Under the pieces are notes generated by a model. That model made no database searches, was not told the origin of the DNA, and saw nothing but the letters and a program-made list of their open reading frames with translations. Shown one piece after another: positions 29,394 through 48,020 of a stretch of DNA of 64,000 bases (positions are counted from its first letter, which is position 1; the number at the start of each line of letters is the position of its first letter). Source of the DNA: Alphaproteobacteria bacterium (GTDB lineage Bacteria > Pseudomonadota > Alphaproteobacteria > Rs-D84); assembly GCA_009784275.1 (NCBI GenBank), contig WRCA01000001.1, forward strand, positions 129,783-193,782, written 5' to 3'. Both the position numbers and the translations under genes were made by a program.

Positions 29394-29424
29394 TAAAAAA
29401 ATCCGCCGATTGGCGGATTTTTTA
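29394..29424. terminator. bidirectional terminator AAAAAAATCCGCCGATTGGCGGATTTTTTA
   Basis: Between convergent pgk and the 717 aa gene. Overlaps the latter's stop codon. Confidence 0.65.
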
Positions 29425-31575
29425 TGGAATACAAGCACCACTGACAGTATCCCAGAATGGCGTTGCACTGGGGCAACAAATCTTTCCACCTACTGTTGCT
29501 GGATTGGTTCCCCCCCATTCATATCCTACGGCACACTCACATTCGCCGGTTTCATAGCTCCATGTAGAGTTTTTCGGACAATTACAGGTTTTCGTAGCCA
29601 TGCTCCATGTAGAACGTATCGGGCAATTACAACCAAATGCTGTCGAAGCTGTTCCTGGGACACTCCATGCATTATATGGAGGTTCAGCGCTGCCTTCTCC
29701 TGCGGTATAACACGCGATATCAACGACAAGCGATTCTTTACCGATTCCTAAAGTAGTGGCACAACTTTTAATCACCGACAAGCACGCGTTATATACAGCA
29801 TTTGAAACATATCCGATATCGGTTCCACTGCTGCCGATTATCGCGCCATTTGTTATCAGACATGACTGGACATCGGACTTACAACCTGCCCTGTATTCCG
29901 CAATAATATTATCTTGCCGCGCTTTTATCTGGGTTAACGCTTGGGTCAGGTATTCTTTAACAACCTGATTTTGCGGGTCATAACGTTTGTTGGCCCCGGT
30001 GCTGTAAGTATAAGCCTGGCATCTGTTCAACACGGACATACACATTCCGTAATCTCTGCCATTTTCATTTCTGCCAATCTTTGATACCAAGAAGCTGACC
30101 ATATTGGCGCTGTTGGAATTAAAGTTAGTTATATTCGAACTGATAAATTCGGAAAGCGAACCAGAGTTACCCCATACGCCCCACATGGAGGTAAAGCCCG
30201 GGGCGGTGAAATCGCTGCCAGGGATAACTTCGCCATTAACAATAAACTTGCCGGTCGGATCCAAGCACAATTCGTAATCATTTCCGCAAACAGAATCATT
30301 CTGCATACATGCATCCAACGCGCTGACGCATCCGCGCATATCATAAGAATTCCGGTTTTGCGCCACGACCAAGCGCGCCTTTTGCAGCACTGCCGTCGCA
30401 TTGCGCACTGTCCGTCTCATTTGGGTATTTGAATCATCCAATGCGCGCTCATACTCTATGCACTGTCTGTCGATTTCCAAGTCATAAGAATTTGTTATCA
30501 AGGCCGTATCCACGCCTTGTTTTTTGCAAGTATCCAAAACAGACGCTTTGCAACGGGTCGATGCTGTTTTAAACAATTCTGCCCCGCGCTGGTTCGATAT
30601 AGTGCTGCTGCCCATTCCGAACAACGAACTCAAATCAAACCCGCTTCCGAAATTCAAATCCAAGCTGGCGAAATCCAAGAACCCGTTTTCAAAACCCGTG
30701 CTGCTGCCGCCTTTTACATCCAGAACCAGTTTTTTAATTTTATCCAAATCATTTTTAAGCTGGCTGGTATCCTGGGTTCTTTGCATTTCCTGTTCTGCTT
30801 CGGTTTGAGTGAACAGAGAATTCACTTCGTCCTTGGTAAGACCCAGGTATTGAATTTTCATGGCGACATCTTGCAAGTCTTCGGTCGCCTGCTTTAACGC
30901 ATCTTCGCTCTTTTTGTAATTAGCAATATTGGCGGAACAACTGCACCGGCCCTGGTTATCATCCAGAACATCGCAGAAATTATCCATACAAGCAAAAAAC
31001 TGCGCTTTGCAGAAATCTTCCAGCTGTGCAATTTCTTCCATGCTTACGCCCGTATCAACCGGCGTAGCAGGAGAACTTCCAAACAGCGGCGTTCCCGCCA
31101 TACGTGTTGCGGAAAGCTGCCCTATGGCACTGCCACGAACGCCGACACGCGCATTATACAAAGGTGCTGTCACAGTATCTGACTGCACAATTCCGGCACG
31201 CGCTGTATTTACATTATTCGTGCCACTAGACCGCGTAGCGAGCGTTTTTTCGGGACCTGTCAAAGACATAGAACGAATACTGGTCGCCGCATTGCGTGAA
31301 GCAACCGCGCGGCTGGTCGCCGCTGCGCGTGGCGCAGTTTGCGCGCCCGCCGCCGGAACAGCACGCGTAGCGGAACGCGCCGTCACCGGGGTACGCGCAT
31401 TAAGCGCGGGTTGCCTTAAAATCGGCGCAGTTGCGGGTGCAGAAACTTCTTCGGGGTTTTCGTCATAGAACGGGCTTTCGACCACATCCGTTTCAGACTC
31501 GTAATAGACCGGTGCAACCTCTGCAAACGCGGGCATGCACAGCAGTCCGAACAATACGGGCAAGATTTTCTTCAT
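29422..31575 (-). CDS. large secreted cysteine-rich protein, paralog A (717 aa): signal peptide, Arg/Ser/Ala/Thr-rich repeats, Cys-rich core, C-terminal CxC repeats
   Basis: MKKILPVLFGLLCMPAFA signal peptide. AQFFACMDNFC...RCSCS block shared with the 822 aa protein. About 40 Cys. Confidence 0.6.
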   Translation of the reverse strand: MKKILPVLFGLLCMPAFAEVAPVYYESETDVVESPFYDENPEEVSAPATAPILRQPALNARTPVTARSATRAVPAAGAQTAPRAAATSRAVASRNAATSIRSMSLTGPEKTLATRSSGTNNVNTARAGIVQSDTVTAPLYNARVGVRGSAIGQLSATRMAGTPLFGSSPATPVDTGVSMEEIAQLEDFCKAQFFACMDNFCDVLDDNQGRCSCSANIANYKKSEDALKQATEDLQDVAMKIQYLGLTKDEVNSLFTQTEAEQEMQRTQDTSQLKNDLDKIKKLVLDVKGGSSTGFENGFLDFASLDLNFGSGFDLSSLFGMGSSTISNQRGAELFKTASTRCKASVLDTCKKQGVDTALITNSYDLEIDRQCIEYERALDDSNTQMRRTVRNATAVLQKARLVVAQNRNSYDMRGCVSALDACMQNDSVCGNDYELCLDPTGKFIVNGEVIPGSDFTAPGFTSMWGVWGNSGSLSEFISSNITNFNSNSANMVSFLVSKIGRNENGRDYGMCMSVLNRCQAYTYSTGANKRYDPQNQVVKEYLTQALTQIKARQDNIIAEYRAGCKSDVQSCLITNGAIIGSSGTDIGYVSNAVYNACLSVIKSCATTLGIGKESLVVDIACYTAGEGSAEPPYNAWSVPGTASTAFGCNCPIRSTWSMATKTCNCPKNSTWSYETGECECAVGYEWGGTNPATVGGKICCPSATPFWDTVSGACIP

Positions 31576-37209: not shown

Positions 37210-38685
37210 TTAAAACGCATATTTAACGCCCAAATGAACACCGAATGACTGCCAATTCGCGTACTTCAATGAATCCGGGATGTTCACCGTATGCGCCTCT
37301 ACCGTTTCCAGCACAGGATAACATCCCGCCTGGACTGTCGGATCACAAGGTAGTCCGCTGACATCATTAAATACATACTGGCCAAATTCATCCATCAAAT
37401 AAGTCGTATATGATGCTACAAACAACTTCCCACCAATATTGCCTACATGGAAAAAGTTCGTATCCACTTTCAACGACAGATTCATTCGGTCTGACAGCTT
37501 GTAATTATACTCCATTTCCGCAAGATATGAATATGCGCCGGTGTTGCCTTCGTCGATAAAGCTGGGATTTTGCTGCCAGTCCGTTCTGTTCGGCCATATG
37601 CCTTCGGATGAATAGTGAGGCATTCCGACCTGAACATAAAAACGCAACTTATCCTTGAAAGTCATTTGTTTTTCGACTTCCAGTCCCAGGAAAAGCCCGC
37701 TCCATGTCGTATTATAAATATGCGTTACCCCAGGGACTATTATCGGTCCATCCCCGCCAATAATCACGCACTCGCCCGGTCCGACACCCCATGGCAAATA
37801 CATCCACAGCGGATCATAATCTGTTGTATTTAACGAACCATCAAGATTAACACTGGGCGATCCATCCGGATTTACCGCCGCAACTTTGATATCTTCTGGC
37901 GACAAACAAACTTGATACCAACCATTTTCAGCATATTCTTTGGCCAGACCTTGTGGCACGCTGATAAAAGCGCCAGCCGCATCACCGAAAACATAGTTTC
38001 CGTCCGGTGTTAACAGAGGAAGGTATACCGCAGGGTTCGGATAATAATGATCCGACATTCTTAAATCATGTTTGAAAATTTCGTACCCGATTGACGGCGA
38101 CAGCTTCCATCCCGCCACATCCCACATATGTTTCGCACCAAAACCAAATTTAATATTATTTGTTTTTCCAGTTTGGTTTCCGACTGAAATTGTGAAAATT
38201 CCTATATCAGGTTCTGACCAATTGTATGGTTCCAAGTCATAGTCGATGGAAAATCCAGCGCTGGCCATTGTACCCATGCGATATTCGCCATAAGCGAACA
38301 GGTCATAATTTCTCATAGTGAAATTACTATCCAAACGAACGCCGATTTCGTTATAGACCATATTGCTCCATTCCAAAACCGAATTCACCCCGGTTTTGAA
38401 AGAAAAATCTGCGTATCTTCGGGCATAATCCGCCGACAACACCCATGGCGGTTTTTCATCGGTTGCAACGCCAGCCGGTGTCATTGTTCCGCCAATACCT
38501 GGCGGTAATTCCTGGCGCGGGACTTGATAAGTATAGCTTCGTTGGGCCACTATTTGAGGTTGACGCTGGGTTCCGACATATGTATTTGGCCCAGCTTGGT
38601 AATAAGTCGGCGTTCCTTCACGCGCAGCAAACACCGCCAAAGGCGCAAAAATCCCAAGTAAAACGGCGAAAAAGCCCATTCTCAT
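37210..38685 (-). CDS. outer membrane beta-barrel protein (porin/MOMP-like), 491 aa
   Basis: Signal peptide MRMGFFAVLLGIFAPLAVFAA, alternating amphipathic strands, C-terminal ...GVHLGVKYAF ending in aromatic Phe. Confidence 0.5.
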   Translation of the reverse strand: MRMGFFAVLLGIFAPLAVFAAREGTPTYYQAGPNTYVGTQRQPQIVAQRSYTYQVPRQELPPGIGGTMTPAGVATDEKPPWVLSADYARRYADFSFKTGVNSVLEWSNMVYNEIGVRLDSNFTMRNYDLFAYGEYRMGTMASAGFSIDYDLEPYNWSEPDIGIFTISVGNQTGKTNNIKFGFGAKHMWDVAGWKLSPSIGYEIFKHDLRMSDHYYPNPAVYLPLLTPDGNYVFGDAAGAFISVPQGLAKEYAENGWYQVCLSPEDIKVAAVNPDGSPSVNLDGSLNTTDYDPLWMYLPWGVGPGECVIIGGDGPIIVPGVTHIYNTTWSGLFLGLEVEKQMTFKDKLRFYVQVGMPHYSSEGIWPNRTDWQQNPSFIDEGNTGAYSYLAEMEYNYKLSDRMNLSLKVDTNFFHVGNIGGKLFVASYTTYLMDEFGQYVFNDVSGLPCDPTVQAGCYPVLETVEAHTVNIPDSLKYANWQSFGVHLGVKYAF

Positions 38686-38988: not shown

Positions 38989-40062
38989 ATGTCAAACGCA
39001 AAAAAAATTATCGCTATCGATGCAATGGGGGGGGATAAAGCCCCGCGCTCTGTCTTGGGCGGTATGAATCAATTTTTATTTCAATATGGCGGAGATAATG
39101 TTCTATTCCGTGTTTTCGGGGACGAGCCGCGAATTCGCCGCTTGCTTCGGAAATATCCCCGCGTAGCCCGCCATTCGGAAATCATTCACGCGCCAGGTAA
39201 AATAAAATCTACCGACAAGGTTGTCGAAGTTATTCGTCATTCCGGCGACACATCCATGTATATGGCAATAAAAGATGTTCGCGAAGGCAATTCCTGCGCG
39301 GTTGTTTCTGCCGGAAATACGGGCGTTCTTATGGCTTTGTCAAAACTGGCGCTGAAAACTGTCGAGGGGATTTCCAGGCCTGCGATCACAACCATGCTGC
39401 CCAGCGGCGGTGGCGATCAACGTGTTGTAATCCTCGACCTGGGTGCGAATGTTATATGCGACGAGGAGAACTTATTCGATTTTGCTCTGATGGGAAGCGT
39501 GTATGCCGAAAAAATCGGAAAGATGCCACGCCCAAAAGTTGGCATTCTAAACATCGGGGAAGAAGACACCAAAGGCGACGAAGTTTTACAACGGCTGAAC
39601 AAAGTGTTATCCGAGCATAAGGAAGAATTGCCTTATGAATACATCGGTTTTGTAGAGGGCACAGATATCAGCGGTGGAAATGTTCAGGTTGTGGTAACAG
39701 ACGGATTTACCGGCAATATTGTTTTAAAGACTGTCGAAGGTACGGCAAAGCTGATAAAACGAGTGTTAATGGACACCTTTAAAAAATCTTGGGTTGCGGT
39801 GGCGGTTTCATTCCTATTGATTCATGTCTTCAAACGGCTTAAAAACAAGCTGGATCCACGTGCTTATGCTGGCGCAATATTTTTGGGACTAAATGGGTTT
39901 TCGGTAAAGACTCATGGCAACAGCGATGCCTTGGCTTTTTCGAACGCGATAAAATACGCGTCAGACCTGGCGGATGCCAGCTTTAACGACCAGATAAAAG
40001 CCAGTGCGGAAAAGTTGAAAAATGTGAAGGGTTTATTAAGGGAGAAGACGGATGGGGAATAG
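38989..40062 (+). CDS. plsX: phosphate acyltransferase PlsX
   Basis: IAIDAMGGDKAP and GNTG motifs. Position after rpmF. Confidence 0.85.
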   Translation: MSNAKKIIAIDAMGGDKAPRSVLGGMNQFLFQYGGDNVLFRVFGDEPRIRRLLRKYPRVARHSEIIHAPGKIKSTDKVVEVIRHSGDTSMYMAIKDVREGNSCAVVSAGNTGVLMALSKLALKTVEGISRPAITTMLPSGGGDQRVVILDLGANVICDEENLFDFALMGSVYAEKIGKMPRPKVGILNIGEEDTKGDEVLQRLNKVLSEHKEELPYEYIGFVEGTDISGGNVQVVVTDGFTGNIVLKTVEGTAKLIKRVLMDTFKKSWVAVAVSFLLIHVFKRLKNKLDPRAYAGAIFLGLNGFSVKTHGNSDALAFSNAIKYASDLADASFNDQIKASAEKLKNVKGLLREKTDGE

Positions 40063-40990
40063 ATTAATCGGCTATGGTTCTTATTTGCCGGAAAAGATTA
40101 TGACTAATGCTGATTTCGAAAAAATTTTGGATACTACTGATGAATGGATTTTATCGCGTACCGGAATAAAGCAACGACATTTCGCGCGTGAAGACGAAAC
40201 AGTTTCTGATATGGCGACGATCGCAGCGCGGCGCGCACTTGAAAATGCAAATTTACAGCCCGATGATATTGATCTGATTATTGTCGCGACGACTTCGGCA
40301 GAGATGGCTTTCCCATCTGTCGGCGCAATGGTATCGCGCGATTTGGGAATGACTAATAATGCGCCGGCGTTTGATGTTCGCGCTGCTTGCACCGGATATG
40401 TTTATGCGCTGCATTGCGCACGGGCTTTTTTCAATGCCGGAATGCATAACAGAATTATGGTTATCGGTGCGGAAAAAATGTCACGCTATATAGATTGGCG
40501 CGAGCGCAGTACCGCTGTTTTATTTGGCGATGGCGCAGGCGCAATGATTTTTGAGCATTCTTCGTCAAACTATTCAGGAATCATCGATACAGTCGTAGAT
40601 GCCGACGGACACGGTTATGGAATGCTGCATGAAAGCAATCATCAATCTGTCGAAATGAACGGTCCGGAAACTTACAAGCATGCCGTGCAATTAATGCCAG
40701 AGGCTGCGAACTATATCATGGATCATGCTGGCATTCAGGCTGAGAATATCGATTGGATTATCCCACACCAGGCAAACCTGCGCATTATTGAAAGCGGAGC
40801 GCAAAGGTTGGGTTTTCCGTTGGAAAAAATTATCATTACTGTGGATCAACATGCGAATACCAGCGGCGCATCAGGCGCATTAGCATTTGCATGGGGCATG
40901 GATAATGGTAAGATAAAGCATGGTCAATTAATAATGTATCCAGCGTTCGGGTCGGGTTTGACTTGGGGCGCAGCAATGATAAGGGTGTAA
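40052..40990 (+). CDS. fabH: 3-oxoacyl-ACP synthase III
   Basis: Active-site AACTG (Cys), HQANLRI (His), GSGLTWG. Confidence 0.9.
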   Translation: MGNRLIGYGSYLPEKIMTNADFEKILDTTDEWILSRTGIKQRHFAREDETVSDMATIAARRALENANLQPDDIDLIIVATTSAEMAFPSVGAMVSRDLGMTNNAPAFDVRAACTGYVYALHCARAFFNAGMHNRIMVIGAEKMSRYIDWRERSTAVLFGDGAGAMIFEHSSSNYSGIIDTVVDADGHGYGMLHESNHQSVEMNGPETYKHAVQLMPEAANYIMDHAGIQAENIDWIIPHQANLRIIESGAQRLGFPLEKIIITVDQHANTSGASGALAFAWGMDNGKIKHGQLIMYPAFGSGLTWGAAMIRV

Positions 40991-40992
40991 AA

Positions 40993-41277
40993 ATGGCAAC
41001 TGTTTCAAGAATAGATTTTTCAAAAAGATTAAGCGCGACAACCGGATTAAGCATGGCAGAAGCCGGCAAGCTGGTAGATCTTGTGTTTTCAGAAATCGCG
41101 GAATCATTAATTCGCGGGGAAGAAGTGAAAATCGCAAATCTGGGGACTTTCAAAATCTTGGAAAAAAACGCACGCATGGGACGCAATCCAAAGACCGGCG
41201 AGACCGCAGTAATTTCTGCCCGTCGTGTTGCATCATTTAAACCCAGCGCAGAATTAAGAAAAAAAATGGCTAATTAA
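40993..41277 (+). CDS. ihfA: integration host factor alpha subunit
   Basis: MATVSRIDFSKRL...GLS..EA..LVD.VF.EI...GE.V...GTF....ARMGRNPKTGE. Follows fabH as in alphaproteobacteria. Confidence 0.75.
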   Translation: MATVSRIDFSKRLSATTGLSMAEAGKLVDLVFSEIAESLIRGEEVKIANLGTFKILEKNARMGRNPKTGETAVISARRVASFKPSAELRKKMAN

Positions 41278-41302
41278 AATCCCGCTTTCGCGGGATTTTT
41301 TA
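41277..41302. terminator. bidirectional terminator AAAATCCCGCTTTCGCGGGATTTTTT
   Basis: Between convergent ihfA and pepO. Confidence 0.65.
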
Positions 41303-43282
41303 CCACACTTTCACCCTCTCTTCCGGAGAAATATAAAGTTTGTCCGTTGGCACTACATCAAATGCTTCATACCATTTATCAATATGCGGCAAAATTCCAT
41401 TAACACGCCACTCGGATAAAGAATGCGGATCGACTTTGGTAAGACGCACAACTTCTTCTGGACGTATGTTCTGATTTTCGCATGCCGCATAACCCAGGAA
41501 AAATATTTGTTCTGGCGTGAATTCGGATTTCGCCGCACCGCTACCCGCCAGTTTCCATGCATCAAATGAAATCATGATTCCACCATAGTCTGCCAAATTC
41601 TCACCCAATGTAAATTTTCCGTTCGCATACAATCCTGGCGCGACTTCAATTTTATTGAAAAAGTCTTCCATGACTTTCGCACGCGTTTCGAACGCTTTGG
41701 CATCCGATGGTTTCCACCAGTCTTTCAGATTACCATCCTTGTCAAACTTTCTTCCTTGGTCATCAAAGCCATGTGTCATTTCGTGTCCGATGACGCTGCC
41801 GATCGCGCCATAGTTTATGGCATCCGGAGCATTGAAATCAAAAAACGGGGGCTGCAAAATCCCTGCAGGAAAACAAATCTCGTTCGTTGGCGGATTATAA
41901 TAAGCATTAACTGTTTGCGGATACATATGCCAATGATCTCTATCAACAGGACCATCAGCTTTTTCTATCCAGAACGCATCTTCAAAAGCTGCTGCCGCTC
42001 GCAAATTCTCATACAGCGAAACCTTTTCGGAAATTTCCAGCTTTGAATAATCACGCCATTTATCCGGATAGCCGATTTTCACGCGGAAAGTTCCCAATTT
42101 TTCCAATGCCTGCTTCTTTGTTTCTGGCGACATCCATTCAAGGTTTTCAATTCTTATGGCATATGCACGACGCAGATTTTCAACCAGGTTCAGCATTTTT
42201 TCTTTTGCCGCGGGCGGGAAATATTTTTCTACATAAACCTGTCCCACGGCCTCGCCCATCACACCCTCTGCCAATGACACCGCGTCTTTCCAGCGTGGGC
42301 GCCGTTCGGTTTTTCCCGATAATGTTTTGCTGTAGAATTCGAACTGCAGTTCGTACTGCGCATCGCCCAACACGGCCATCGCGCTATTTGCAACCCGCCA
42401 TTTCATATAAGCGCGCAGATTTTCCAATGGCTCTTTTTTGATGATCTCAAGCGCAGCTGCAATCGCTTCGGGTTGTGCGACATTGATGTTTTTCGGGTTC
42501 GCCATACGCAATTCGAAATAATTTTTCCAATTAAGGCCCGCGTATTTTTTAACAAGCTCCGCACGAGTCATTTTGTGATAATTCGCATGTGGATCACGCA
42601 ACTTTTCTTTTTTATAATGCGCCTTGGCAAGTTTTTCTTCGATCTGATAAACAGCCTTTGGGTCGCCTGGGATTGAAAACATTACGAAAACATCGCCCAT
42701 ATACTTCTTATACTTTTCGCGAATTTCTTGTGACCGCTCATCAGTATCAAAATAATATTCGCGTTCCGGCAGGCCGATTCCGCCTTGGCCCATGGAATAA
42801 ATATAATGATCGCTGTCCATTATGTCTTCTTCGACGCCATTGCTCCAAAAAGCGCCGCCAAAACGATGAAAGTCCGCCAGCACACCCCAGAACTCTTCCG
42901 CATTTTTAATCATATCTATCAGTTCGAATTCTTTTGATACAGGCGCGACCCCGTCCTTGTTCAAACGATTTGCATCCATGGCTTGTTTATAAATCGTTGC
43001 GATTTTTTTATTGCTGGTATCGCGGACAATTTTATGAAGCTTTTCTGAATTTTCCTGACGTAGCTTGTCAAAAACGCCATAACGAGCATACTCGCCAGTC
43101 AGCGGATTCTTGCGGCGCCATCCCGCGCCCGCATAGCTGTAAAAATCGTCGCCCGGACGAATAGTCAAATCCATATTTGTAATATCAATCATGCTTCTGG
43201 GTTCCTTTCTTATATAATAAATTGTCACGGCTGTAATCACTACCGCGAGTATTCCAATGATGTTGAGTAGTTTGCTCTTCAT
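41300..43282 (-). CDS. pepO: M13 family zinc metallopeptidase (PepO / endothelin-converting-enzyme-like), membrane anchored
   Basis: N-terminal TM IIGILAVVITAVTIYYI. HEMTHGFD zinc motif and ENLADYGG downstream motif. Confidence 0.8.
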   Translation of the reverse strand: MKSKLLNIIGILAVVITAVTIYYIRKEPRSMIDITNMDLTIRPGDDFYSYAGAGWRRKNPLTGEYARYGVFDKLRQENSEKLHKIVRDTSNKKIATIYKQAMDANRLNKDGVAPVSKEFELIDMIKNAEEFWGVLADFHRFGGAFWSNGVEEDIMDSDHYIYSMGQGGIGLPEREYYFDTDERSQEIREKYKKYMGDVFVMFSIPGDPKAVYQIEEKLAKAHYKKEKLRDPHANYHKMTRAELVKKYAGLNWKNYFELRMANPKNINVAQPEAIAAALEIIKKEPLENLRAYMKWRVANSAMAVLGDAQYELQFEFYSKTLSGKTERRPRWKDAVSLAEGVMGEAVGQVYVEKYFPPAAKEKMLNLVENLRRAYAIRIENLEWMSPETKKQALEKLGTFRVKIGYPDKWRDYSKLEISEKVSLYENLRAAAAFEDAFWIEKADGPVDRDHWHMYPQTVNAYYNPPTNEICFPAGILQPPFFDFNAPDAINYGAIGSVIGHEMTHGFDDQGRKFDKDGNLKDWWKPSDAKAFETRAKVMEDFFNKIEVAPGLYANGKFTLGENLADYGGIMISFDAWKLAGSGAAKSEFTPEQIFFLGYAACENQNIRPEEVVRLTKVDPHSLSEWRVNGILPHIDKWYEAFDVVPTDKLYISPEERVKVW

Positions 43283-44370
43283 TTTAATAACCTTACTATC
43301 AAATTGTCCAAAAGCAAAAAATTTTTCGCGACTAATCTATTATCTTTAATCGTCAATTCCGCAGAATTCCAATTAGTGATTTCTTTGATTTCCGGCGTCA
43401 GTTTAACGCCCTGCGTTGTGCGCAACCCAGTAAGCAGGACTTCCAAAGCGCGTTCGCGGTTTTGTAGGGGCGCTTCACGAAGCACCCCTATGGAATCGTA
43501 TTTAGTCTCATACCACTGATTATTTATAAAAACTCTGCCTGCGGCGCCGTCACCCAGACCCAGATAAGGCTGACCATCCCACACATTCGCATTATGCTGG
43601 CACGGGGTTCCATAGTTTGACACTTCGTATCGTTGCAAATTTAATGTTTCGCCCACTGCCTCGTACATCTGCGCCATCGTTTCATTGTCGGGCATTTTTA
43701 GATTTTGTTTTGCAAGCGCCGTACCAGATTCGATAGATAACTCATACATAGAACAATGTTCCAATCCCAATTCATTTATTTGCTGGCAGAGTTTTTTTAC
43801 ATCCGCCACAGTTTGATCCGGCAGTCCATAAATAAAATCTGCGCTGACGCGAATACCCGCGTTTTGCGCGTCCGCAATAAATTTTCGCGCATCTGTCGCA
43901 TTATGAATTCGTCCCAAGAATTTTAGTTCTTCATCATTTAATGACTGCACACCAATAGAAATTCTATTGACGCCTGCGGCGATAAATTCTTGCAAACGCT
44001 GTGTATCGATTGTTCCAGGATTTGCTTCGATTGTAATTTCTGTATCTGGCGCGACATCGAATGCACTGCGGATTGCATTCATGATTTCCGCAAAGATTTT
44101 TGTCGGCATCAAGCTGGGCGTGCCGCCGCCGAAAAAGATCGTTGGCACGGCGGCGCGCCCGATCTTCCCGACCCAAAAATTAATTTCTGATAAGATTTGA
44201 TTTTTATAATCCAGCCAATCGGGCGCACCGCAAACCTTGGAATAAAACGCGCAATAATTACATTTCTTTACGCAGAATGGAACATGGATATAGATATTAT
44301 GCGGTGATACAGTCATACGATTATTGCAGAGCTTTTGGAACATATCCAAAAGTTTCATCATTGATACCAT
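43279..44370 (-). CDS. hemW: radical SAM heme chaperone HemW (HemN-like, oxygen-independent coproporphyrinogen oxidase family); true start probably the ATG at 44316
   Basis: IYIHVPFCVKKCNYCAF CxxxCxxC cluster. 4 nt overlap with the pepO start. The longer ORF overlaps the upstream gene by 50 nt. Confidence 0.75.
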   Translation of the reverse strand: MVSMMKLLDMFQKLCNNRMTVSPHNIYIHVPFCVKKCNYCAFYSKVCGAPDWLDYKNQILSEINFWVGKIGRAAVPTIFFGGGTPSLMPTKIFAEIMNAIRSAFDVAPDTEITIEANPGTIDTQRLQEFIAAGVNRISIGVQSLNDEELKFLGRIHNATDARKFIADAQNAGIRVSADFIYGLPDQTVADVKKLCQQINELGLEHCSMYELSIESGTALAKQNLKMPDNETMAQMYEAVGETLNLQRYEVSNYGTPCQHNANVWDGQPYLGLGDGAAGRVFINNQWYETKYDSIGVLREAPLQNRERALEVLLTGLRTTQGVKLTPEIKEITNWNSAELTIKDNRLVAKNFLLLDNLIVRLLK

Positions 44371-46789
44371 TACAGTATGTTTGACTACCGGTAATTCCAG
44401 ATGTACCAGTAGTCTTCAAACCAAATGGACATACTTTATTATTGAAATCTGCGAAACTTACATCGTCGAGAGGAAGGCTTACTACACTGCGCTGACAGCT
44501 GGTACTATTGCAAAGATCCGGATCATTGCTTGCAACTGCATTTGGATCTGGCTGCAGTATTGCTGGAGTACTTGGATAAGTATTATACCGCTCTGGACTG
44601 CAACCCAACGAAGTACCATTAGCACTACGCCGCCCCCCATTTTCCCAACAGCTGCATATCCCCCAAGATGTCGTGTCTATTTTCTTCCCGTAATCCATCG
44701 GGCACATATTTTCTTCAAATACGCCATTCGCAGAAACTATGTCATACAATACAGCCAGCATTGTGATAAAGCCGCCGGGCGTAGAGAAATCCGCCACGCA
44801 GAATTGAGAATACATATCTGGCGATAAAAATCTTTTTTGAACAAATCTGCCGCCATAGTTCTGACATTCGGAAGACAACCTGTTTGTTATCTGATTATAA
44901 ATTTCCGTCGCGACACCCCGGCTATGCATCGATTTTGGATTAAATGTAGTTCCTTCTTCCAACCCATACGTGCCATTCATTTTGTCGAACCCGCCAAATA
45001 CTTCAAGCGCAAAATCAGCATTGTCATCGGTCTTGAAGTTGCAGGCAGTAACATCAATTAGCTGCCTTGCGCATGGCGATATAACAGACCCGCTTTCATC
45101 CTTGAATGTAAACCAATCCAATGCTCTGCCAGTCGAAAAGATTCCGCTGATCGGATTATAAAAGTTGTTATATCCAACGCCACCGAAGTTATCAAAGCAC
45201 TGCTTAACCACCGCGCGGCAGGAATCCATCAGGTCTTGATTCTTTCTATTTTCAATATACTGCGCGATTATTCCCTGCCCTTCGCCGCGGCTGAACATAT
45301 AATCGCATGCGGTCACATATTTCTGACAAGTTGCATCCTGCAGATCGATCATGCCGGGGGTCAAATCTACCGCGCTGTTAATCAATCCAGCCATTGCCGC
45401 GGTTATCGCATGTGACCCATTCATATAACAAGCCGACACGAAGTCCATGCATCCGGTTTTGATTTCATCGACCTTTTCCCTTTGCGAGTAATAGATTTCC
45501 AGCATCGCTTTATCCAAATAATCCGCCCAGACTTGATCTGCTATCTCGGTACATTTATCCAGCGAAGGTTGAGCAAACTGTCTGACCTTTTTTTCAAATG
45601 TAGTCACAAACGTACGATTGTTCGGATTCCTTGCCAGTTTTTGTTCCCCCAGCGATATATTGCTTGTAAATGACAGCATTTCTTGCAATCTGAAAAACTC
45701 TACTACACCCTCCAACGGTCTGCCTGTTGTTACATCTATGAATTTTCCATTATCAAGACACTTGCGGTATCCCAAACCGCAAACTTCTTCAGACTGCACC
45801 GCTTTCTCAACATTGCGCAAGCATTCTGTCGCGTCCGAAGAATTTCGTTCTTGGCGATCCTGAACGCGCGCCAGGTTCAGCATAGCGCCGCCTTCGCGCA
45901 CAGCAGCAGCCATCTTCTTTTTATTTTCATCTATTTGTCTTTGCACTGTGTTGCAATCTTGCTCCACCGCCATCAAATATGCCGTAACCGCGCGCTGCAA
46001 GGCCGCATCGTTGCAATCACCGCGTACAGCTTCGCGACATTTTCCATAAATCGCGGTATAAAGATTTTTTCCGTTGTATGCCGCAATCGCTTGACCGCTG
46101 TCCATAAAGCCAAATCCCGCGGACTCATCCATTTTTATATTGATGCTGTTCAGGCCTTCGTACGCGCCGCCAACCGTGGCATTTTCACCCTTTATTGAAT
46201 TCATAATCGCTTGCAGCAAAGCCTTGGATGCGGACTTGTCGCCGGTCAGTGCCAGCTCTCCCTCGCTGGCCTTGCGCATGGCTTCTGCTTGGGCGGCGCT
46301 CATCCCGACTACATCCAAAGACTCGGTAAAAGTCGTCAGCTGCGCACCAGCATCCCTCATTACGCCTTGCGCCGCAGTAATGTCATAGATTTTATCCGAG
46401 CAAGAACAACGTTGATAAGTTGGATCTTTTATCGCGCAAAATTGGTCCATACAGGCAAAATAAGCGGACTTGCATTGATCGTACTCCATGCCGGTGCGCG
46501 TGCCGACTGATTGAGTTTCCGTTGCAGCGCGCGCCCTTACCAAAGGTTGTTGCGTTGCGGAACGTGTTGTTTGGACTTGCGTTGCACTGCGTGCAGGTGT
46601 TGATGTTGCAGAGCGTGCTGCAACCTGGGGCGCTGCGCCACGCGTAGAAATATTGGTGGTTGCGCTGCGGCTGACAACCTCTGCCGACGTTGCAGGGCGC
46701 GCAGACCTGGTGACATCACGCGGTGCGGCATCTGCATGATGCGCACAAAACAGCGTCAATCCGATAAAAATCAGAGAAATTTTTTTCAT
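44321..46789 (-). CDS. large secreted cysteine-rich protein, paralog B (822 aa)
   Basis: MKKISLIFIGLTLFCAHHADA signal peptide, RSAT-type repeats, SAYFACMDQFC...RCSCS block and further colinear Cys and motif conservation with the 717 aa protein. Confidence 0.6.
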   Translation of the reverse strand: MKKISLIFIGLTLFCAHHADAAPRDVTRSARPATSAEVVSRSATTNISTRGAAPQVAARSATSTPARSATQVQTTRSATQQPLVRARAATETQSVGTRTGMEYDQCKSAYFACMDQFCAIKDPTYQRCSCSDKIYDITAAQGVMRDAGAQLTTFTESLDVVGMSAAQAEAMRKASEGELALTGDKSASKALLQAIMNSIKGENATVGGAYEGLNSINIKMDESAGFGFMDSGQAIAAYNGKNLYTAIYGKCREAVRGDCNDAALQRAVTAYLMAVEQDCNTVQRQIDENKKKMAAAVREGGAMLNLARVQDRQERNSSDATECLRNVEKAVQSEEVCGLGYRKCLDNGKFIDVTTGRPLEGVVEFFRLQEMLSFTSNISLGEQKLARNPNNRTFVTTFEKKVRQFAQPSLDKCTEIADQVWADYLDKAMLEIYYSQREKVDEIKTGCMDFVSACYMNGSHAITAAMAGLINSAVDLTPGMIDLQDATCQKYVTACDYMFSRGEGQGIIAQYIENRKNQDLMDSCRAVVKQCFDNFGGVGYNNFYNPISGIFSTGRALDWFTFKDESGSVISPCARQLIDVTACNFKTDDNADFALEVFGGFDKMNGTYGLEEGTTFNPKSMHSRGVATEIYNQITNRLSSECQNYGGRFVQKRFLSPDMYSQFCVADFSTPGGFITMLAVLYDIVSANGVFEENMCPMDYGKKIDTTSWGICSCWENGGRRSANGTSLGCSPERYNTYPSTPAILQPDPNAVASNDPDLCNSTSCQRSVVSLPLDDVSFADFNNKVCPFGLKTTGTSGITGSQTYCNGINDETFGYVPKALQ

Positions 46790-46884
46790 TCCTGATGAAA
46801 TTATACAGAATTTTGCAAAGCCCGGTCAATCAGTATTTAATTCTTGCAAAGGGGATTTTTTTGGGATAATATTGCTGTCGCTTG

Positions 46885-46968
46885 CGGATATGGCGGAATT
46901 GGTAGACGCGCTAGTTTCAGGTACTAGTGGGGCGACCCTTGGAAGTTCGAGTCTTCTTATCCGCACCA
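46885..46968 (+). tRNA. tRNA-Leu (anticodon CAG)
   Basis: GCGGATATGGCGGAATTGGTAGACGCGCTAGTTTCAGGTACTAG... long variable arm ...TTCGAGTCTTCTTATCCGCACCA. Confidence 0.85.
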
Positions 46969-46975
46969 TTTTTTA

Positions 46976-47051
46976 GGGGTTGTAGCTCAGTTGGTAGAGC
47001 GCTACGTTCGCATCGTAGAGGTCGTGAGTTCGAGTCTCATCAGCTCCACCA
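46976..47051 (+). tRNA. tRNA-Cys (anticodon GCA)
   Basis: GGGGTTGTAGCTCAGTTGGTAGAGCGCTACGTTCGCATCGTAG...GTTCGAGTCTCATCAGCTCCACCA. Anticodon loop TTCGCAT. Confidence 0.75.
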
Positions 47052-47057
47052 GTTTCT

Positions 47058-47144
47058 GGTCTTGTGGCGGAATGGTAGACGCTGAGGACTTAAAATCCTT
47101 TGGTTATTGCAACCGTGTGGGTTCGAGTCCCACCAAGACCACCA
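47058..47144 (+). tRNA. tRNA-Leu (anticodon UAA)
   Basis: GGTCTTGTGGCGGAATGGTAGACGCTGAGGACTTAAAATCCTT... long variable arm ...GGGTTCGAGTCCCACCAAGACCACCA. Confidence 0.85.
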
Positions 47145-47258
47145 TGAACTTTGTTCCTATAAACCTTGCAACCTTACGACGCGCACATCTGCTCGTTGCT
47201 AATAACGCTCCTCGCAGTGTGCTTTTACGCTCGGTTTCGAGTCCCACCAAGACCACCA
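47145..47258 (+). repeat. tRNA-Leu tail module (homolog of 16087-16201) ending in an imperfect copy of the tRNA-Leu(UAA) 3' end (GGTTTCGAGTCCCACCAAGACCACCA)
   Basis: 3' 26 nt have one mismatch against 47119-47144. Shared spacer motifs are AACCTTG(T/C)AACCT.AC.A.GCGC and TTACGCTCGGTTTC. Confidence 0.75.
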
Positions 47259-47354
47259 AAAAATTCCCCGCGATCTTCGTAATTTTATTTCATGCTAAGT
47301 GAAATAAAAAAACCAGCACAAAGTATGCTTTACGCTGGTTAATTTTGAACTTAC

Positions 47355-48020
47355 TTATCTATTTTTAATATTCCGATTGATGACCGCCATTGCGCGGGCG
47401 TGGTCTTTCGGATTATCCGGAAAGTTAACTAATGCCTTCTTTGCGCCAGCGCCATCACGGCTGGGTTCTACTATTACTTCTGGAACGCTCGATGTTTCTT
47501 TGCCTATATCTTCCAAAACAAAACACCCATCAAATGAAACTCGTTTTGCTTTGAAGCACAATGCTTCATGTTCGCAACGGTCGCAATCAAGCAATAATGG
47601 TCCATGCATCGCTAACTCGGCACATGCCTCTTTGAAAATGTTTTTGGCAGTTTTTTCATCCATACCTATCGCTTTCCCCACCGTCGAGATCGTCAATGCA
47701 ATCGCTTTCTCTGCTTCTGTAGGAGTAATCTCAATTTTATCAAAAAGCTGGTGGGTAACTCGGAAAATATATTTCGACACATTTTGCATTTGGACTAACG
47801 GCGTGGCTTTTTTATATTCTTCGACCTTGTTTCTGGGAACATTCAGAATATCACCAGGCTGGTGCATCGCAGCAACCAAATAATTCGTTTCCGGATATAT
47901 TTTTGCACATTCTTCTGCAAGCGCGGCTTTTTCAAGCAACTGTTCAAACCAATGCTTCATCGAACGCGCATTGCCAATGATCAATCTATTAAATTCTTTT
48001 TCAAATTTTTCAAAAGACAT
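47355..48020 (-). CDS. hypothetical protein with C-terminal Cys cluster (DCDRCEHEALC...C)
   Basis: 221 aa ORF, no family recognised. Possible metal-binding site. Confidence 0.4.
   Translation of the reverse strand: MSFEKFEKEFNRLIIGNARSMKHWFEQLLEKAALAEECAKIYPETNYLVAAMHQPGDILNVPRNKVEEYKKATPLVQMQNVSKYIFRVTHQLFDKIEITPTEAEKAIALTISTVGKAIGMDEKTAKNIFKEACAELAMHGPLLLDCDRCEHEALCFKAKRVSFDGCFVLEDIGKETSSVPEVIVEPSRDGAGAKKALVNFPDNPKDHARAMAVINRNIKNR

What the first reader, a model, noticed from the sequence alone, without database searches (positions are those of the whole stretch)
44321..46789. Member B of the Cys-rich family sits in a tight operon with hemW and an M13 peptidase
The 822 aa Cys-rich secreted protein ends 4 nt before the probable hemW start (44316). 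hemW overlaps pepO (M13 zinc peptidase, membrane anchored) by 4 nt. That gives three co-oriented, translationally coupled genes: a secreted Cys-rich protein, a radical-SAM heme chaperone and a secreted metallopeptidase. The coupling suggests co-expression. The peptidase might process the Cys-rich protein, or the arrangement may be incidental to genome compaction. Paralog A is not linked to such genes, which argues for caution.
Basis: partly seen in the sequence, partly recalled or inferred. Interest (0 to 1): 0.5.

Follow-up and report, generated by a model that had tools for sequence, protein, structure and literature searches.

The report
Cys-rich gene fused onto hemW–peptidase operon
In this small-genome gut alphaproteobacterium, a gene for a secreted cysteine-rich protein of unknown function sits directly in front of an older two-gene unit (a haem-chaperone-like enzyme plus a membrane-anchored peptidase); the three genes are probably read as one transcript, but comparison with about 140 related loci shows the link to the cysteine-rich gene is a local rearrangement, not evidence that the proteins work together.

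Summary
An 822-aa secreted Cys-rich protein (B, 44321-46789, minus strand) ends 4 nt before hemW (43279-44316). hemW overlaps an M13 peptidase gene (41300-43282) by 4 nt. A strong promoter lies just upstream of B and a strong terminator just after the peptidase, so co-transcription is likely.

Comparative data change the interpretation. The conserved unit is hemW plus a membrane-anchored oligopeptidase. It is tightly joined in 54 of 57 informative related loci, usually with its own promoter and a divergent porin-like gene upstream, and without B.

B orthologues in about 73 of 80 species genomes lie elsewhere. There B has its own conserved promoter and usually its own terminator, convergent with lpxB-lpxA. 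B→hemW fusion occurs in only seven genomes of the window's own subclade; three more have B divergent from hemW.

The peptidase slot holds three different catalytic types (M13, M3A, M3B) behind one conserved anchor. All are oligopeptidase families, so specific processing of an 80-kDa protein is unlikely.

B belongs to a large, uncharacterised family restricted to this lineage (order Rs-D84, Candidatus Enterousia relatives). It has no Pfam or NCBIfam match and no match among solved structures. Overall this is an ordinary lineage-specific operon fusion, with two modestly interesting side findings.

The parts
46800..46829 (-). Promoter of B: -35 TTGACC (46829-46824), 18-nt spacer, -10 TATAAT (46805-46800). 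The -10 ends 10 nt before the ATG, implying a very short or absent leader.
   Evidence: 11 of 12 consensus matches; sequence read. The same layout is present upstream of 58 of 67 B orthologues, against 0.6% of all ATG trinucleotides in the loci.
44321..46789 (-). Gene B: 822-aa secreted Cys-rich protein (NCBI MCL2748615.1, FWE50_00895, annotated hypothetical). Signal peptide is aa 1-21. A disordered Arg/Ser/Thr/Ala-rich segment with (S/A)R(S/A)A repeats spans aa 22-98. A mostly helical Cys-rich core spans aa 99-560, a mixed alpha/beta part aa 560-735, and a Cys-containing tail aa 736-822.
   Evidence: No Pfam, NCBIfam or PHROG family. More than 900 homologues, all unnamed. 803 clusters at 50% identity. 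AF2 model with pLDDT 70. No structural match.
43279..44316 (-). hemW: radical-SAM HemW-family protein, 345 aa, with CVKKCNYCAF at residue 15 and HNANVW at residue 241. It starts 4 nt after B's stop codon.
   Evidence: PF04055; TIGR00539, 260.3 bits against a 205.4 cut-off; start and motifs conserved in nine orthologues.
41300..43282 (-). M13 family zinc metallopeptidase, 660 aa (NCBI MCL2748613.1), with an N-terminal membrane anchor MKSKLLNIIGILAVVITAVTIYYI, HEMTH at residue 500 and ENLAD at 561. Its ATG overlaps the hemW TGA (ATGA).
   Evidence: The anchor is conserved across relatives and is shared with the M3A and M3B replacements.
41272..41299 (-). Intrinsic terminator directly after the peptidase stop: AAAAAAUCCCGC-GAAA-GCGGGAUUUU. 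It looks bidirectional and also closes the convergent HU/IHF-like ORF at 40963-41277 (+).
   Evidence: Sequence read. Fold of -19.3 kcal/mol, z = -4.9, with 0 of 200 shuffles as stable. Found by my hairpin + U-tract rule. The stricter scan missed it.
46884..47144 (+). tRNA-Leu(CAG), tRNA-Ala(CGC) and tRNA-Leu(UAA), divergent from B. They mark the upstream boundary of the transcription unit and leave a 94-nt control region (46790-46883).
   Evidence: tRNA-derived ORFs (cluster 15) are the immediate upstream neighbour of B in many relatives.
29422..31575 (-). Paralog A: 717 aa, 29 Cys, 0 His (NCBI FWE50_00830). It shares the N-terminal domain, about 480 residues, with B.

Best explanation
The three genes form one transcription unit in this genome, but that unit is a lineage-specific fusion of two older, independent units.

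Unit 1 is B. In most of the order it is monocistronic, with its own strong, conserved promoter placed 10 nt from the ATG and its own terminator. B is exported by a Sec signal peptide. Its roughly 30 Cys residues, many of them invariant, most likely form disulfides outside the cytoplasm. I infer, without a test, that it is a structural or surface protein of the cell envelope in these reduced-genome, probably partner-dependent bacteria.

Unit 2 is a bicistron found across the order: hemW followed by a membrane-anchored oligopeptidase. The two are translationally coupled (mostly an ATGA overlap), and in most relatives the unit is driven by its own promoter next to a divergent Pom-like outer-membrane protein gene.

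In the window's subclade a rearrangement placed hemW directly behind B. The gene order is consistent with inversion of the block hemW-peptidase-ihf-fabH-plsX. B's terminator and hemW's promoter are both absent here, so hemW and the peptidase are now most likely expressed by read-through from B's promoter and by translational coupling.

Nothing indicates that HemW or the peptidase acts on B.

Shown: gene identities, geometry, promoter and terminator sequences, and the synteny statistics. Inferred: co-transcription, the direction and mechanism of the rearrangement, and B's location and role.
For: (1) Geometry and signals in the window.

(2) B→hemW→oligopeptidase occurs in seven distinct genomes: the window, L001=L081, L003, L004, L082=L087, L083 and L086. 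Junctions are TAATG, a 4-nt gap or an 11-nt overlap, and the outer flanks differ.

(3) On a neighbour-joining tree of B orthologues, the five of these genomes that are in the tree (the window, L001, L003, L004 and the contig-truncated L002) form one clade.

(4) B is divergent from hemW in L017, L084 and L119.

(5) In 52 loci of the main clade, B is followed by convergent lpxB. 34 of those 52 have a hairpin plus U tract after B.

(6) B's promoter layout is conserved in 58 of 67 orthologues.

(7) hemW-peptidase: 54 of 57 informative metagenomic loci have the peptidase start -11 to +9 nt from the hemW stop (one locus at +36). 46 loci have a divergent Pom-like gene about 100 nt upstream, with -35/-10 elements ending a few nt upstream of hemW's ATG, estimated by eye at about 7-10 nt.

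(8) The window's order Pom(-) plsX(+) fabH(+) ihf(+) pepO(-) hemW(-) B(-) is the inverse of the common order Pom(-) hemW(+) pepO(+) fabH(-) plsX(-). The left flank A-proS-...-Pom is unchanged.

(9) B has no CxxCH, no CxxC and only 4 His. Paralog A has no His at all. That argues against these proteins being haem clients of HemW.
Against: - There are no transcript data; promoter and terminator calls are consensus matches.
- A weak promoter-like match (TGGATA-17-AATAAT with an upstream TG, 9 of 12) overlaps B's stop codon at 44348-44320 and could drive hemW separately. Read by eye in the junction sequences, the corresponding spacing in L003 looks wrong; other relatives were not checked.
- B stays adjacent to hemW in ten genomes in two different orientations. 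That could reflect selection for shared regulation rather than inertia.
- With the tree rooted on paralog A, the hemW-linked clade is sister to all other B orthologues. Which arrangement is ancestral is therefore not resolved by the B tree alone.
- Metagenomic loci are not all independent species; some are near-duplicates (L101/L102, L113/L114).
- B's function is inferred only from sequence features.
Confidence: 0.72

Rival explanations
1. Functional module: B is a substrate or client of its neighbours. The membrane-anchored peptidase would trim B (for example by removing the Arg-rich N-terminal segment), or HemW would deliver a cofactor to B. Co-expression would then be selected.
For: - Tight, conserved junctions in seven genomes whose outer flanks differ.
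- B remains next to hemW even where it is inverted (L017, L084, L119).
- B carries an export signal. If the anchored peptidase faces the periplasm (its topology is unresolved), the two could meet.
- Both paralogue families carry a disordered Arg/Ser/Thr/Ala-rich N-terminal region that might be removable.
Against: - About 73 of 80 species genomes keep B with no hemW or peptidase within 10 kb.
- 54 loci keep hemW-peptidase without B.
- Paralog A is never fused to them.
- The peptidase slot is filled by three unrelated catalytic modules. From established knowledge of M13, M3A and M3B enzymes (not tested here), all are oligopeptidases whose enclosed active sites accept only short peptides.
- B lacks haem-binding motifs and A has no His.
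Confidence: 0.08
2. Adjacent but separately transcribed: B is transcribed from its own promoter, while hemW-peptidase is driven mainly by a promoter inside the 3' end of B. The three genes would not then be one operon in practice.
For: - A weak -35/-10 match with an upstream TG lies at 44348-44320, ending 4 nt before the hemW ATG.
- This lineage generally places the -10 a few nucleotides from start codons, so a promoter overlapping B's last codons is mechanistically plausible.
- A secreted, probably structural, protein and two enzymes may need very different expression levels.
Against: - The match is 9 of 12, in a region where 21 such matches were found against 14.8 +/- 3.8 expected by chance.
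- Read by eye, the spacing is not kept in L003 (about 13 nt); other relatives were not checked.
- There is no terminator between B and hemW, so read-through from B's strong promoter would occur anyway.
Confidence: 0.15
3. Pure coincidence of compaction: the three genes are packed together only because the genome is about 93% coding. Neither the pair nor the triplet would have any significance.
For: 18 of 39 co-oriented neighbour pairs in the window have gaps of 5 nt or less. Genomes of this order are under 1 Mb (PMC12306168).
Against: The hemW-peptidase pair is kept in 54 of 57 informative loci while the outer flanks vary. It survives three independent catalytic-domain types with the same anchor and the same overlap. 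That is more than compaction explains for the pair. For B's attachment, this rival largely merges with the best explanation.
Confidence: 0.05

Closest known systems
HemW (YggW, HemN-like radical-SAM haem chaperone; NCBIfam TIGR00539)
   Same: Full-length match above the curated cut-off. It has the CxxxCxxC radical-SAM motif followed by Phe rather than HemN's fourth Cys, an HNxx(V)W motif corresponding to HNXXYW, and lacks the long HemN N-terminal extension.
   Different: The host order is reported to lack respiratory chains and the TCA cycle (PMC12306168), so the known client type (respiratory nitrate reductase in E. coli) is probably absent. Here the gene is translationally coupled to an oligopeptidase. 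I found no paper describing that pairing, but I ran no search for it specifically (addressed HemW and Rs-D84 in general). The Tyr of HNXXYW is Val or Ile.
M13 peptidases (PepO / neprilysin / endothelin-converting-enzyme family; PF05649 + PF01431)
   Same: Both Pfam domains, HExxH (HEMTH) and the ExxxD zinc ligand motif (ENLAD) are present. The N-terminal hydrophobic anchor resembles that of type II membrane M13 enzymes.
   Different: It scores only 321 bits against the lactococcal PepO equivalog, which has a cut-off of 1000. It is therefore an M13 member, not a PepO orthologue in the strict sense. In relatives the same anchor carries M3A or M3B catalytic domains instead. Membrane topology is unresolved because both flanks of the helix are basic.
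Chlamydial cysteine-rich outer-membrane-complex proteins (OmcB/OmcA) and other disulfide-rich surface proteins such as Plasmodium DBL adhesins
Operon fusion by rearrangement in reduced genomes
   Same: Two units with their own promoters and terminators in relatives are joined here, with the internal terminator and promoter lost. The junctions are of the overlapping or 4-nt type typical of translationally coupled genes.
   Different: Nothing unusual. This is the ordinary kind of event.

Membership tests
HemW (TIGR00539) | Whole-protein score above the curated equivalog cut-off | tested here: met
   260.3 bits against a cut-off of 205.4. HemN (TIGR00538) scores only 110.3 against 324.95.
HemW (TIGR00539) | Radical-SAM CxxxCxxC cluster motif, without the fourth Cys of HemN (CxxxCxxCxC) | tested here: met
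   CVKKCNYCAF at residue 15, invariant in nine orthologues. That HemW lacks the fourth Cys is from my own knowledge of the HemW literature.
HemW (TIGR00539) | HNXXYW motif proposed to contact haem | tested here: inconclusive
   HNANVW at residue 241. H, N and W are invariant in orthologues, but Tyr is replaced by Val or Ile. The motif is taken from PMC10114718.
HemW (TIGR00539) | Binds haem and transfers it to client proteins | not testable with these tools
   Needs purified protein. The order is reported to lack respiratory chains, so clients are unknown.
Peptidase M13 | Pfam Peptidase_M13_N and Peptidase_M13 domains above the gathering scores | tested here: met
   371.6 bits (cut-off 32) and 219.6 bits (cut-off 24.5).
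Peptidase M13 | Zinc-binding HExxH plus a downstream ExxxD | tested here: met
   HEMTH at residue 500 and ENLAD at 561.
PepO equivalog (NF052391, lactococcal endopeptidase O) | Score above the equivalog cut-off | tested here: not met
   321.1 bits against a cut-off of 1000. Call it an M13 family peptidase, not PepO in the strict sense.
Single operon (B-hemW-peptidase) | Co-orientation, no terminator at the internal junctions, a promoter upstream of the first gene and a terminator after the last | tested here: met
Single operon (B-hemW-peptidase) | Gene order and junctions conserved in relatives | tested here: inconclusive
   Kept in seven genomes of one subclade. Absent in about 73 of 80 other species genomes.
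Single operon (B-hemW-peptidase) | One transcript spans all three genes | not testable with these tools
   No transcriptome data are available here.
Haem protein / c-type cytochrome (as a possible HemW client) | CxxCH haem-attachment motif or conserved His/Met axial ligands in B | tested here: not met
   B has no CxxCH, no CxxC and 4 His. No His is invariant among 26 orthologues. Paralog A has 0 His.
Chlamydial Cys-rich OMC proteins (OmcB-type) | Sequence membership (a Pfam or NCBIfam hit) | tested here: not met
   B and A match no family in Pfam-A or NCBIfam.

The most novel reading that the evidence does not exclude
Two unexcluded ideas, taken together.

(a) hemW and a membrane-tethered oligopeptidase form a real functional pair in the order Rs-D84. 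The requirement would be for any oligopeptidase on this anchor, co-translated with HemW. That would point to an unrecognised role of HemW-family proteins in organisms without respiration, for example in handling scavenged peptides or haem-peptides.

(b) The Cys-rich family (B, A and hundreds of clusters) is the order's own disulfide-stabilised surface or attachment protein set, with a fold not represented among solved structures. In the window's subclade it would have been wired to the same transcript because envelope building and peptide scavenging are co-regulated.
Probability: 0.15. Interest if true: 0.55.

Novelty: new member of a known kind. Interest (0 to 1): 0.3.

Why it matters
As an operon, this matters little. 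It is a local fusion of two units in a compact genome, and it should not be used to infer that the peptidase or HemW acts on the Cys-rich protein.

Two by-products could matter to people working on reduced-genome gut symbionts.

- **The Cys-rich family.** It is found in every one of the 80 genomes examined, is served by a conserved consensus-like promoter, has expanded widely (803 clusters at 50% identity) and is unlike any characterised protein. That makes it a sensible first target for learning how Rs-D84 / Candidatus Enterousia cells build their surface or attach to partners.
- **The hemW–anchored-oligopeptidase pair.** Its catalytic domain has been swapped between three families behind one retained anchor. 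This is a clean natural experiment in non-orthologous replacement. It is also a hint about what HemW-family proteins do where there is no respiratory chain.

Tried and rejected
- **First AF2 run** with a 26-sequence alignment gave pLDDT 54 and was not used. A 106-sequence alignment that included paralog-A relatives raised it to 70.
- **Structure and profile searches found nothing specific.**
  - PDB profile search: best E 0.34.
  - Foldseek against PDB: best E 1.4.
  - Foldseek against BFVD: best E 0.55.
  - afdb50 was not available.
- **PHROGs** had no match for B, A or the 221-aa upstream ORF.
- **Rfam** found only the three tRNAs. A 25.5-bit RsmY match (gathering score 57) over the terminator was rejected as spurious.
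- **Conserved ORF upstream of B** (cluster 15, 46991-47302). I considered it a real gene, but it is a translation of the tRNA genes.
- **B as a haem protein served by HemW.** Rejected because haem motifs are absent and paralog A has no His.
- **Upstream secreted proteins in the main clade** (clusters 5, 11, 14, 17). I tested whether they belong to the B family; a profile search says they do not.
- **hemW and the peptidase in main-clade genomes.** The metagenome scan shows the pair in rumen and gut relatives at 50-60% hemW identity, but I could not link those contigs to particular B loci.
- **Literature.** Searches found no paper on the Cys-rich family; no search targeted a hemW-peptidase pairing.
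Full report
**1. What is in the sequence**

The region holds three co-oriented genes on the minus strand.

- **Gene B (44321-46789)** encodes 822 aa with 31 Cys.
  - It starts with a Sec-type signal peptide (MKKISLIFIGLTLFCAHHADA).
  - Residues 22-98 are a low-complexity Arg/Ser/Thr/Ala-rich stretch with (S/A)R(S/A)A repeats.
- **hemW (43279-44316).** B's TAA is followed by 'tcgt' and then the ATG at 44316.
  - Nine orthologues align from this Met (M-x-VPHNIYIHVPFC), so it is the true start rather than the longer ORF from 44370.
  - The protein is a HemW-family radical-SAM protein. It scores 260.3 bits against TIGR00539 (cut-off 205.4), against 110 bits for true HemN.
  - It carries CVKKCNYCAF and HNANVW.
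- **M13 peptidase (41300-43282).** hemW's TGA overlaps this gene's ATG (ATGA).
  - Both Pfam M13 domains are present, with HEMTH at residue 500 and ENLAD at 561.
  - It has an N-terminal hydrophobic anchor.
  - It does not reach the cut-off of the lactococcal PepO equivalog (321 against 1000 bits), so 'M13 family peptidase' is the accurate name.

**2. Boundaries of the unit**

- Upstream of B lie three tRNA genes on the opposite strand (46884-47144). This leaves a 94-nt control region.
- That region contains TTGACC-18-TATAAT (46829-46800, 11 of 12 matches). The -10 ends 10 nt before the ATG.
- There is no terminator-like hairpin at the B/hemW junction, and the hemW/peptidase junction is an overlap.
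- Directly after the peptidase stop is AAAAAAUCCCGC-GAAA-GCGGGAUUUU. It folds at -19.3 kcal/mol with z = -4.9, and 0 of 200 shuffles fold as well. It faces a convergent HU/IHF-like ORF.
- The internal promoter-like matches are weak (9-10 of 12). The region as a whole has 21 matches against 14.8 +/- 3.8 expected by chance.

Co-transcription from B's promoter is therefore the simplest reading, but it is inferred, not shown.

Tight spacing by itself means little. 18 of 39 co-oriented neighbour pairs in the window have gaps of 5 nt or less, and about 93% of the window is coding.

**3. The organism**

- B is NCBI MCL2748615.1 (FWE50_00895, 'hypothetical protein'), from an Alphaproteobacteria MAG on a 196,885-bp contig. 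The peptidase is MCL2748613.1.
- Paralog A is FWE50_00830.
- Relatives of B come from gut MAGs named Candidatus Enterousia, Alphaproteobacteria or Rickettsiales bacterium. Sources include termite, ruminant, chicken and human guts, and complete chromosomes are 0.72-0.96 Mb.
- Candidatus Enterousia belongs to the uncultured order Rs-D84. All known members have reduced genomes and lack the TCA cycle and respiratory chains. The authors propose they are obligate symbionts or parasites of other cells (PMC12306168).

**4. Synteny of B**

I scanned one genome per species and kept the 80 best loci. I located hemW, the peptidase and other window genes by tblastn, clustered all flanking ORFs, and built a neighbour-joining tree of B orthologues rooted on paralog A. 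Further close relatives came from exact-protein look-ups.

- **B→hemW, co-oriented and tight.** This is found only in the window, L001 (same organism as L081), L003, L004, L082 (= L087), L083 and L086.
  - Junctions are TAATG, a 4-nt gap or an 11-nt overlap.
  - Of these, the window, L001, L003 and L004 (with the truncated L002) group as one clade on the tree; the other three came from later look-ups and are not in the tree.
  - The triplet persists although the outer flanks differ, for example rpsA downstream in L082 and L083 against ihf-fabH-plsX in the window and L001.
- **hemW adjacent but divergent from B.** This is seen in L017 (which, with L005, forms the sister group on the tree), L084 and L119.
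- **No hemW or M13 gene within 10 kb.** This holds for all other loci, about 73 of 80, plus L085.
  - In 52 of them B is followed by convergent lpxB-lpxA and a membrane protein.
  - 34 of those 52 have a GC hairpin plus U tract in the short gap after B.
- **B's promoter layout is conserved across the order.** A typical sequence is cTTGCc...TGCTAAGAT-ttcatcagag-ATG. It is present in 58 of 67 orthologues, against 0.6% of all ATGs in the same loci.

In most of the order, then, B is a self-contained monocistronic gene with a consensus-like promoter and an almost leaderless start.

**5. Synteny of hemW**

I scanned metagenome contigs with a hemW alignment, which gave 80 loci, and analysed them the same way.

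- Among loci with hemW at least 49% identical and at least 400 nt of downstream sequence, 54 of 57 carry an oligopeptidase gene. One more has an apparent frameshift.
- The peptidase start lies -11 to +9 nt from the hemW stop, mostly as the ATGA overlap. One locus has +36.
- In 46 loci the upstream neighbour is a divergent Pom-like outer-membrane protein gene about 100 nt away, not B.
- That intergenic region carries -35/-10 elements ending a few nt upstream of hemW's ATG, estimated by eye at about 7-10 nt.
- More distant hemW genes (35-40% identity) have no peptidase neighbour.

The unit conserved across the order is therefore hemW plus the peptidase.

The window's order is Pom(-) plsX(+) fabH(+) ihf(+) peptidase(-) hemW(-) B(-). 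This is the inverse of the common order Pom(-) hemW(+) peptidase(+) fabH(-) plsX(-). The left flank A-proS-...-Pom is unchanged. One inversion that put hemW behind B would explain the window; this is an inference.

Caveat: some metagenomic loci are near-duplicates, so the counts overstate the number of independent species.

**6. The peptidase slot**

- In L003, L086, L084 and L093 the gene after hemW is an M3A (thimet/OpdA-type) peptidase with TOP_N and Peptidase_M3 domains. In L004 it is an M3B (PepF-type) peptidase with Peptidase_M3_N and Peptidase_M3 domains.
- These proteins keep the same N-terminal anchor as the M13 versions. L003 (M3A) and L083 (M13) share 25 of the first 29 residues, and their DNA is also alike.
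- The catalytic parts are unrelated (blastp E of 0.2 or worse).
- In L003, L004, L086 and L093 the 4-nt overlap with hemW is kept; L084 has a gap of about 42 nt.

Three catalytic families thus occupy one slot behind one anchor. From established knowledge of these families (not tested here), all three are oligopeptidases with enclosed active sites that accept short peptides. This fits a generic peptide-degrading role, useful to an organism reported to lack amino-acid biosynthesis. It argues against specific processing of an 80-kDa folded protein.

The anchor's topology cannot be decided from charge, because both flanks of the helix are basic.

**7. What B is**

- B has no Pfam, NCBIfam or PHROG match.
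- It has more than 900 word-indexed homologues, all unnamed.
- A profile search of 1.84 billion representatives found 803 clusters at E of 0.001 or better. Most share only the N-terminal 520 or so profile positions and have variable C-terminal parts.
- Paralog A (25% identical) has its own set of more than 1,100 relatives. A and B are therefore old paralogues, both widespread in the order.
- 33 columns are invariant across 106 A- and B-type sequences, 14 of them Cys.
- The better AF2 model (pLDDT 70, pTM 0.54) is largely long helices, with a confident mixed alpha/beta region at residues 520-735.
- It matches nothing specific in PDB or BFVD.
- B has no CxxCH, no CxxC and only 4 His. A has no His. 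A haem-client relationship with HemW is therefore unlikely.

My working inference is an exported, disulfide-stabilised envelope or surface protein. It rests on the signal peptide, the invariant Cys pattern, the consensus-like conserved promoter, and the organism's lifestyle as proposed in the literature. It is untested.

**8. Verdict**

The three genes are probably co-transcribed here and in six related genomes. The arrangement is best explained as a lineage-specific fusion of a monocistronic B gene to an older hemW-oligopeptidase bicistron. The suggestion that the peptidase processes B is not supported and is disfavoured.

As a finding about an operon this is ordinary. The uncharacterised Cys-rich family and the hemW-anchored-oligopeptidase module with swapped catalytic domains are the parts worth remembering.

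Noticed in passing
L003:4645-6681, L086:11014-13050, L084:3736-5778 (-), L093:11062-13077, L004:13391-15286; window 41300-43282: The gene after hemW is M13 in most relatives, M3A in four loci and M3B (PepF-type) in one. All share the same N-terminal membrane anchor (up to 25 of 29 identical residues between an M3A and an M13 version), and four of the five M3 loci keep the 4-nt overlap with hemW (L084 has a gap of about 42 nt). The catalytic parts are unrelated. This looks like in-place catalytic-domain replacement behind a retained anchor.
   Followed up: yes
window 46790-46830; loci L003-L080 upstream of B; L088-L157 upstream of hemW: Promoter-like -35/-10 pairs sit with the -10 ending only about 7-11 nt from the start codon, both for B (58 of 67 orthologues) and for hemW in the main clade. 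No usable Shine-Dalgarno spacing is left. Leaderless or near-leaderless mRNAs may be common in this order.
   Followed up: partly
window 37210-38685 (-): A 491-aa protein with a signal peptide matches Pfam PF17251 (Protochlamydia outer membrane protein, E 1.5e-9). Its orthologue is the divergent upstream neighbour of hemW in 46 related loci. A chlamydia-type porin family in an alphaproteobacterium is curious.
   Followed up: no
L085:853-5983 and clusters 10, 11, 17, 5, 14 in L007-L074: In many main-clade genomes B is preceded by a co-oriented set of genes. The set is an A24 prepilin-peptidase-like gene followed by four secreted proteins of about 105-580 aa with no Pfam match, several of them rich in Cys. 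A profile search says they are not members of the B family. They may form a surface-structure gene cluster. No counterpart lies in the 64-kb window.
   Followed up: partly
window 46496-46726 (B residues 22-98) and the equivalent part of paralog A, 29422-31575: Both paralogue families carry a disordered Arg/Ser/Thr/Ala-rich segment of variable length after the signal peptide, with repeated (S/A)R(S/T/A)A motifs. Several Arg positions are over 90% conserved even between the A and B families.
   Followed up: partly
window 38989-44316 compared with L103, L104, L110, L120-L122, L137: The block hemW-peptidase-ihf-fabH-plsX is inverted in the window relative to the common order in the main clade. The flank A-proS-...-Pom is unchanged.
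   Followed up: partly
window 47355-48020 (-), with a terminator-like hairpin at 47340-47311: A 221-aa ORF with 6 Cys has no match in Pfam, NCBIfam or PHROGs. It ends in a clear 13-bp hairpin plus U tract. Its function is unknown.
   Followed up: no
L002, L003, L007, L016, L022 (record titles): Several public MAGs that carry this alphaproteobacterial gene neighbourhood are titled 'uncultured Muribaculaceae bacterium'. One protein is named Lachnospiraceae (P0021). These are probably taxonomy labelling errors in the source records.
   Followed up: no
window 41276-41383 (-): A weak Rfam RsmY match (25.5 bits against a gathering score of 57) overlaps the terminator after the peptidase gene. I judged it spurious.
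   Followed up: yes
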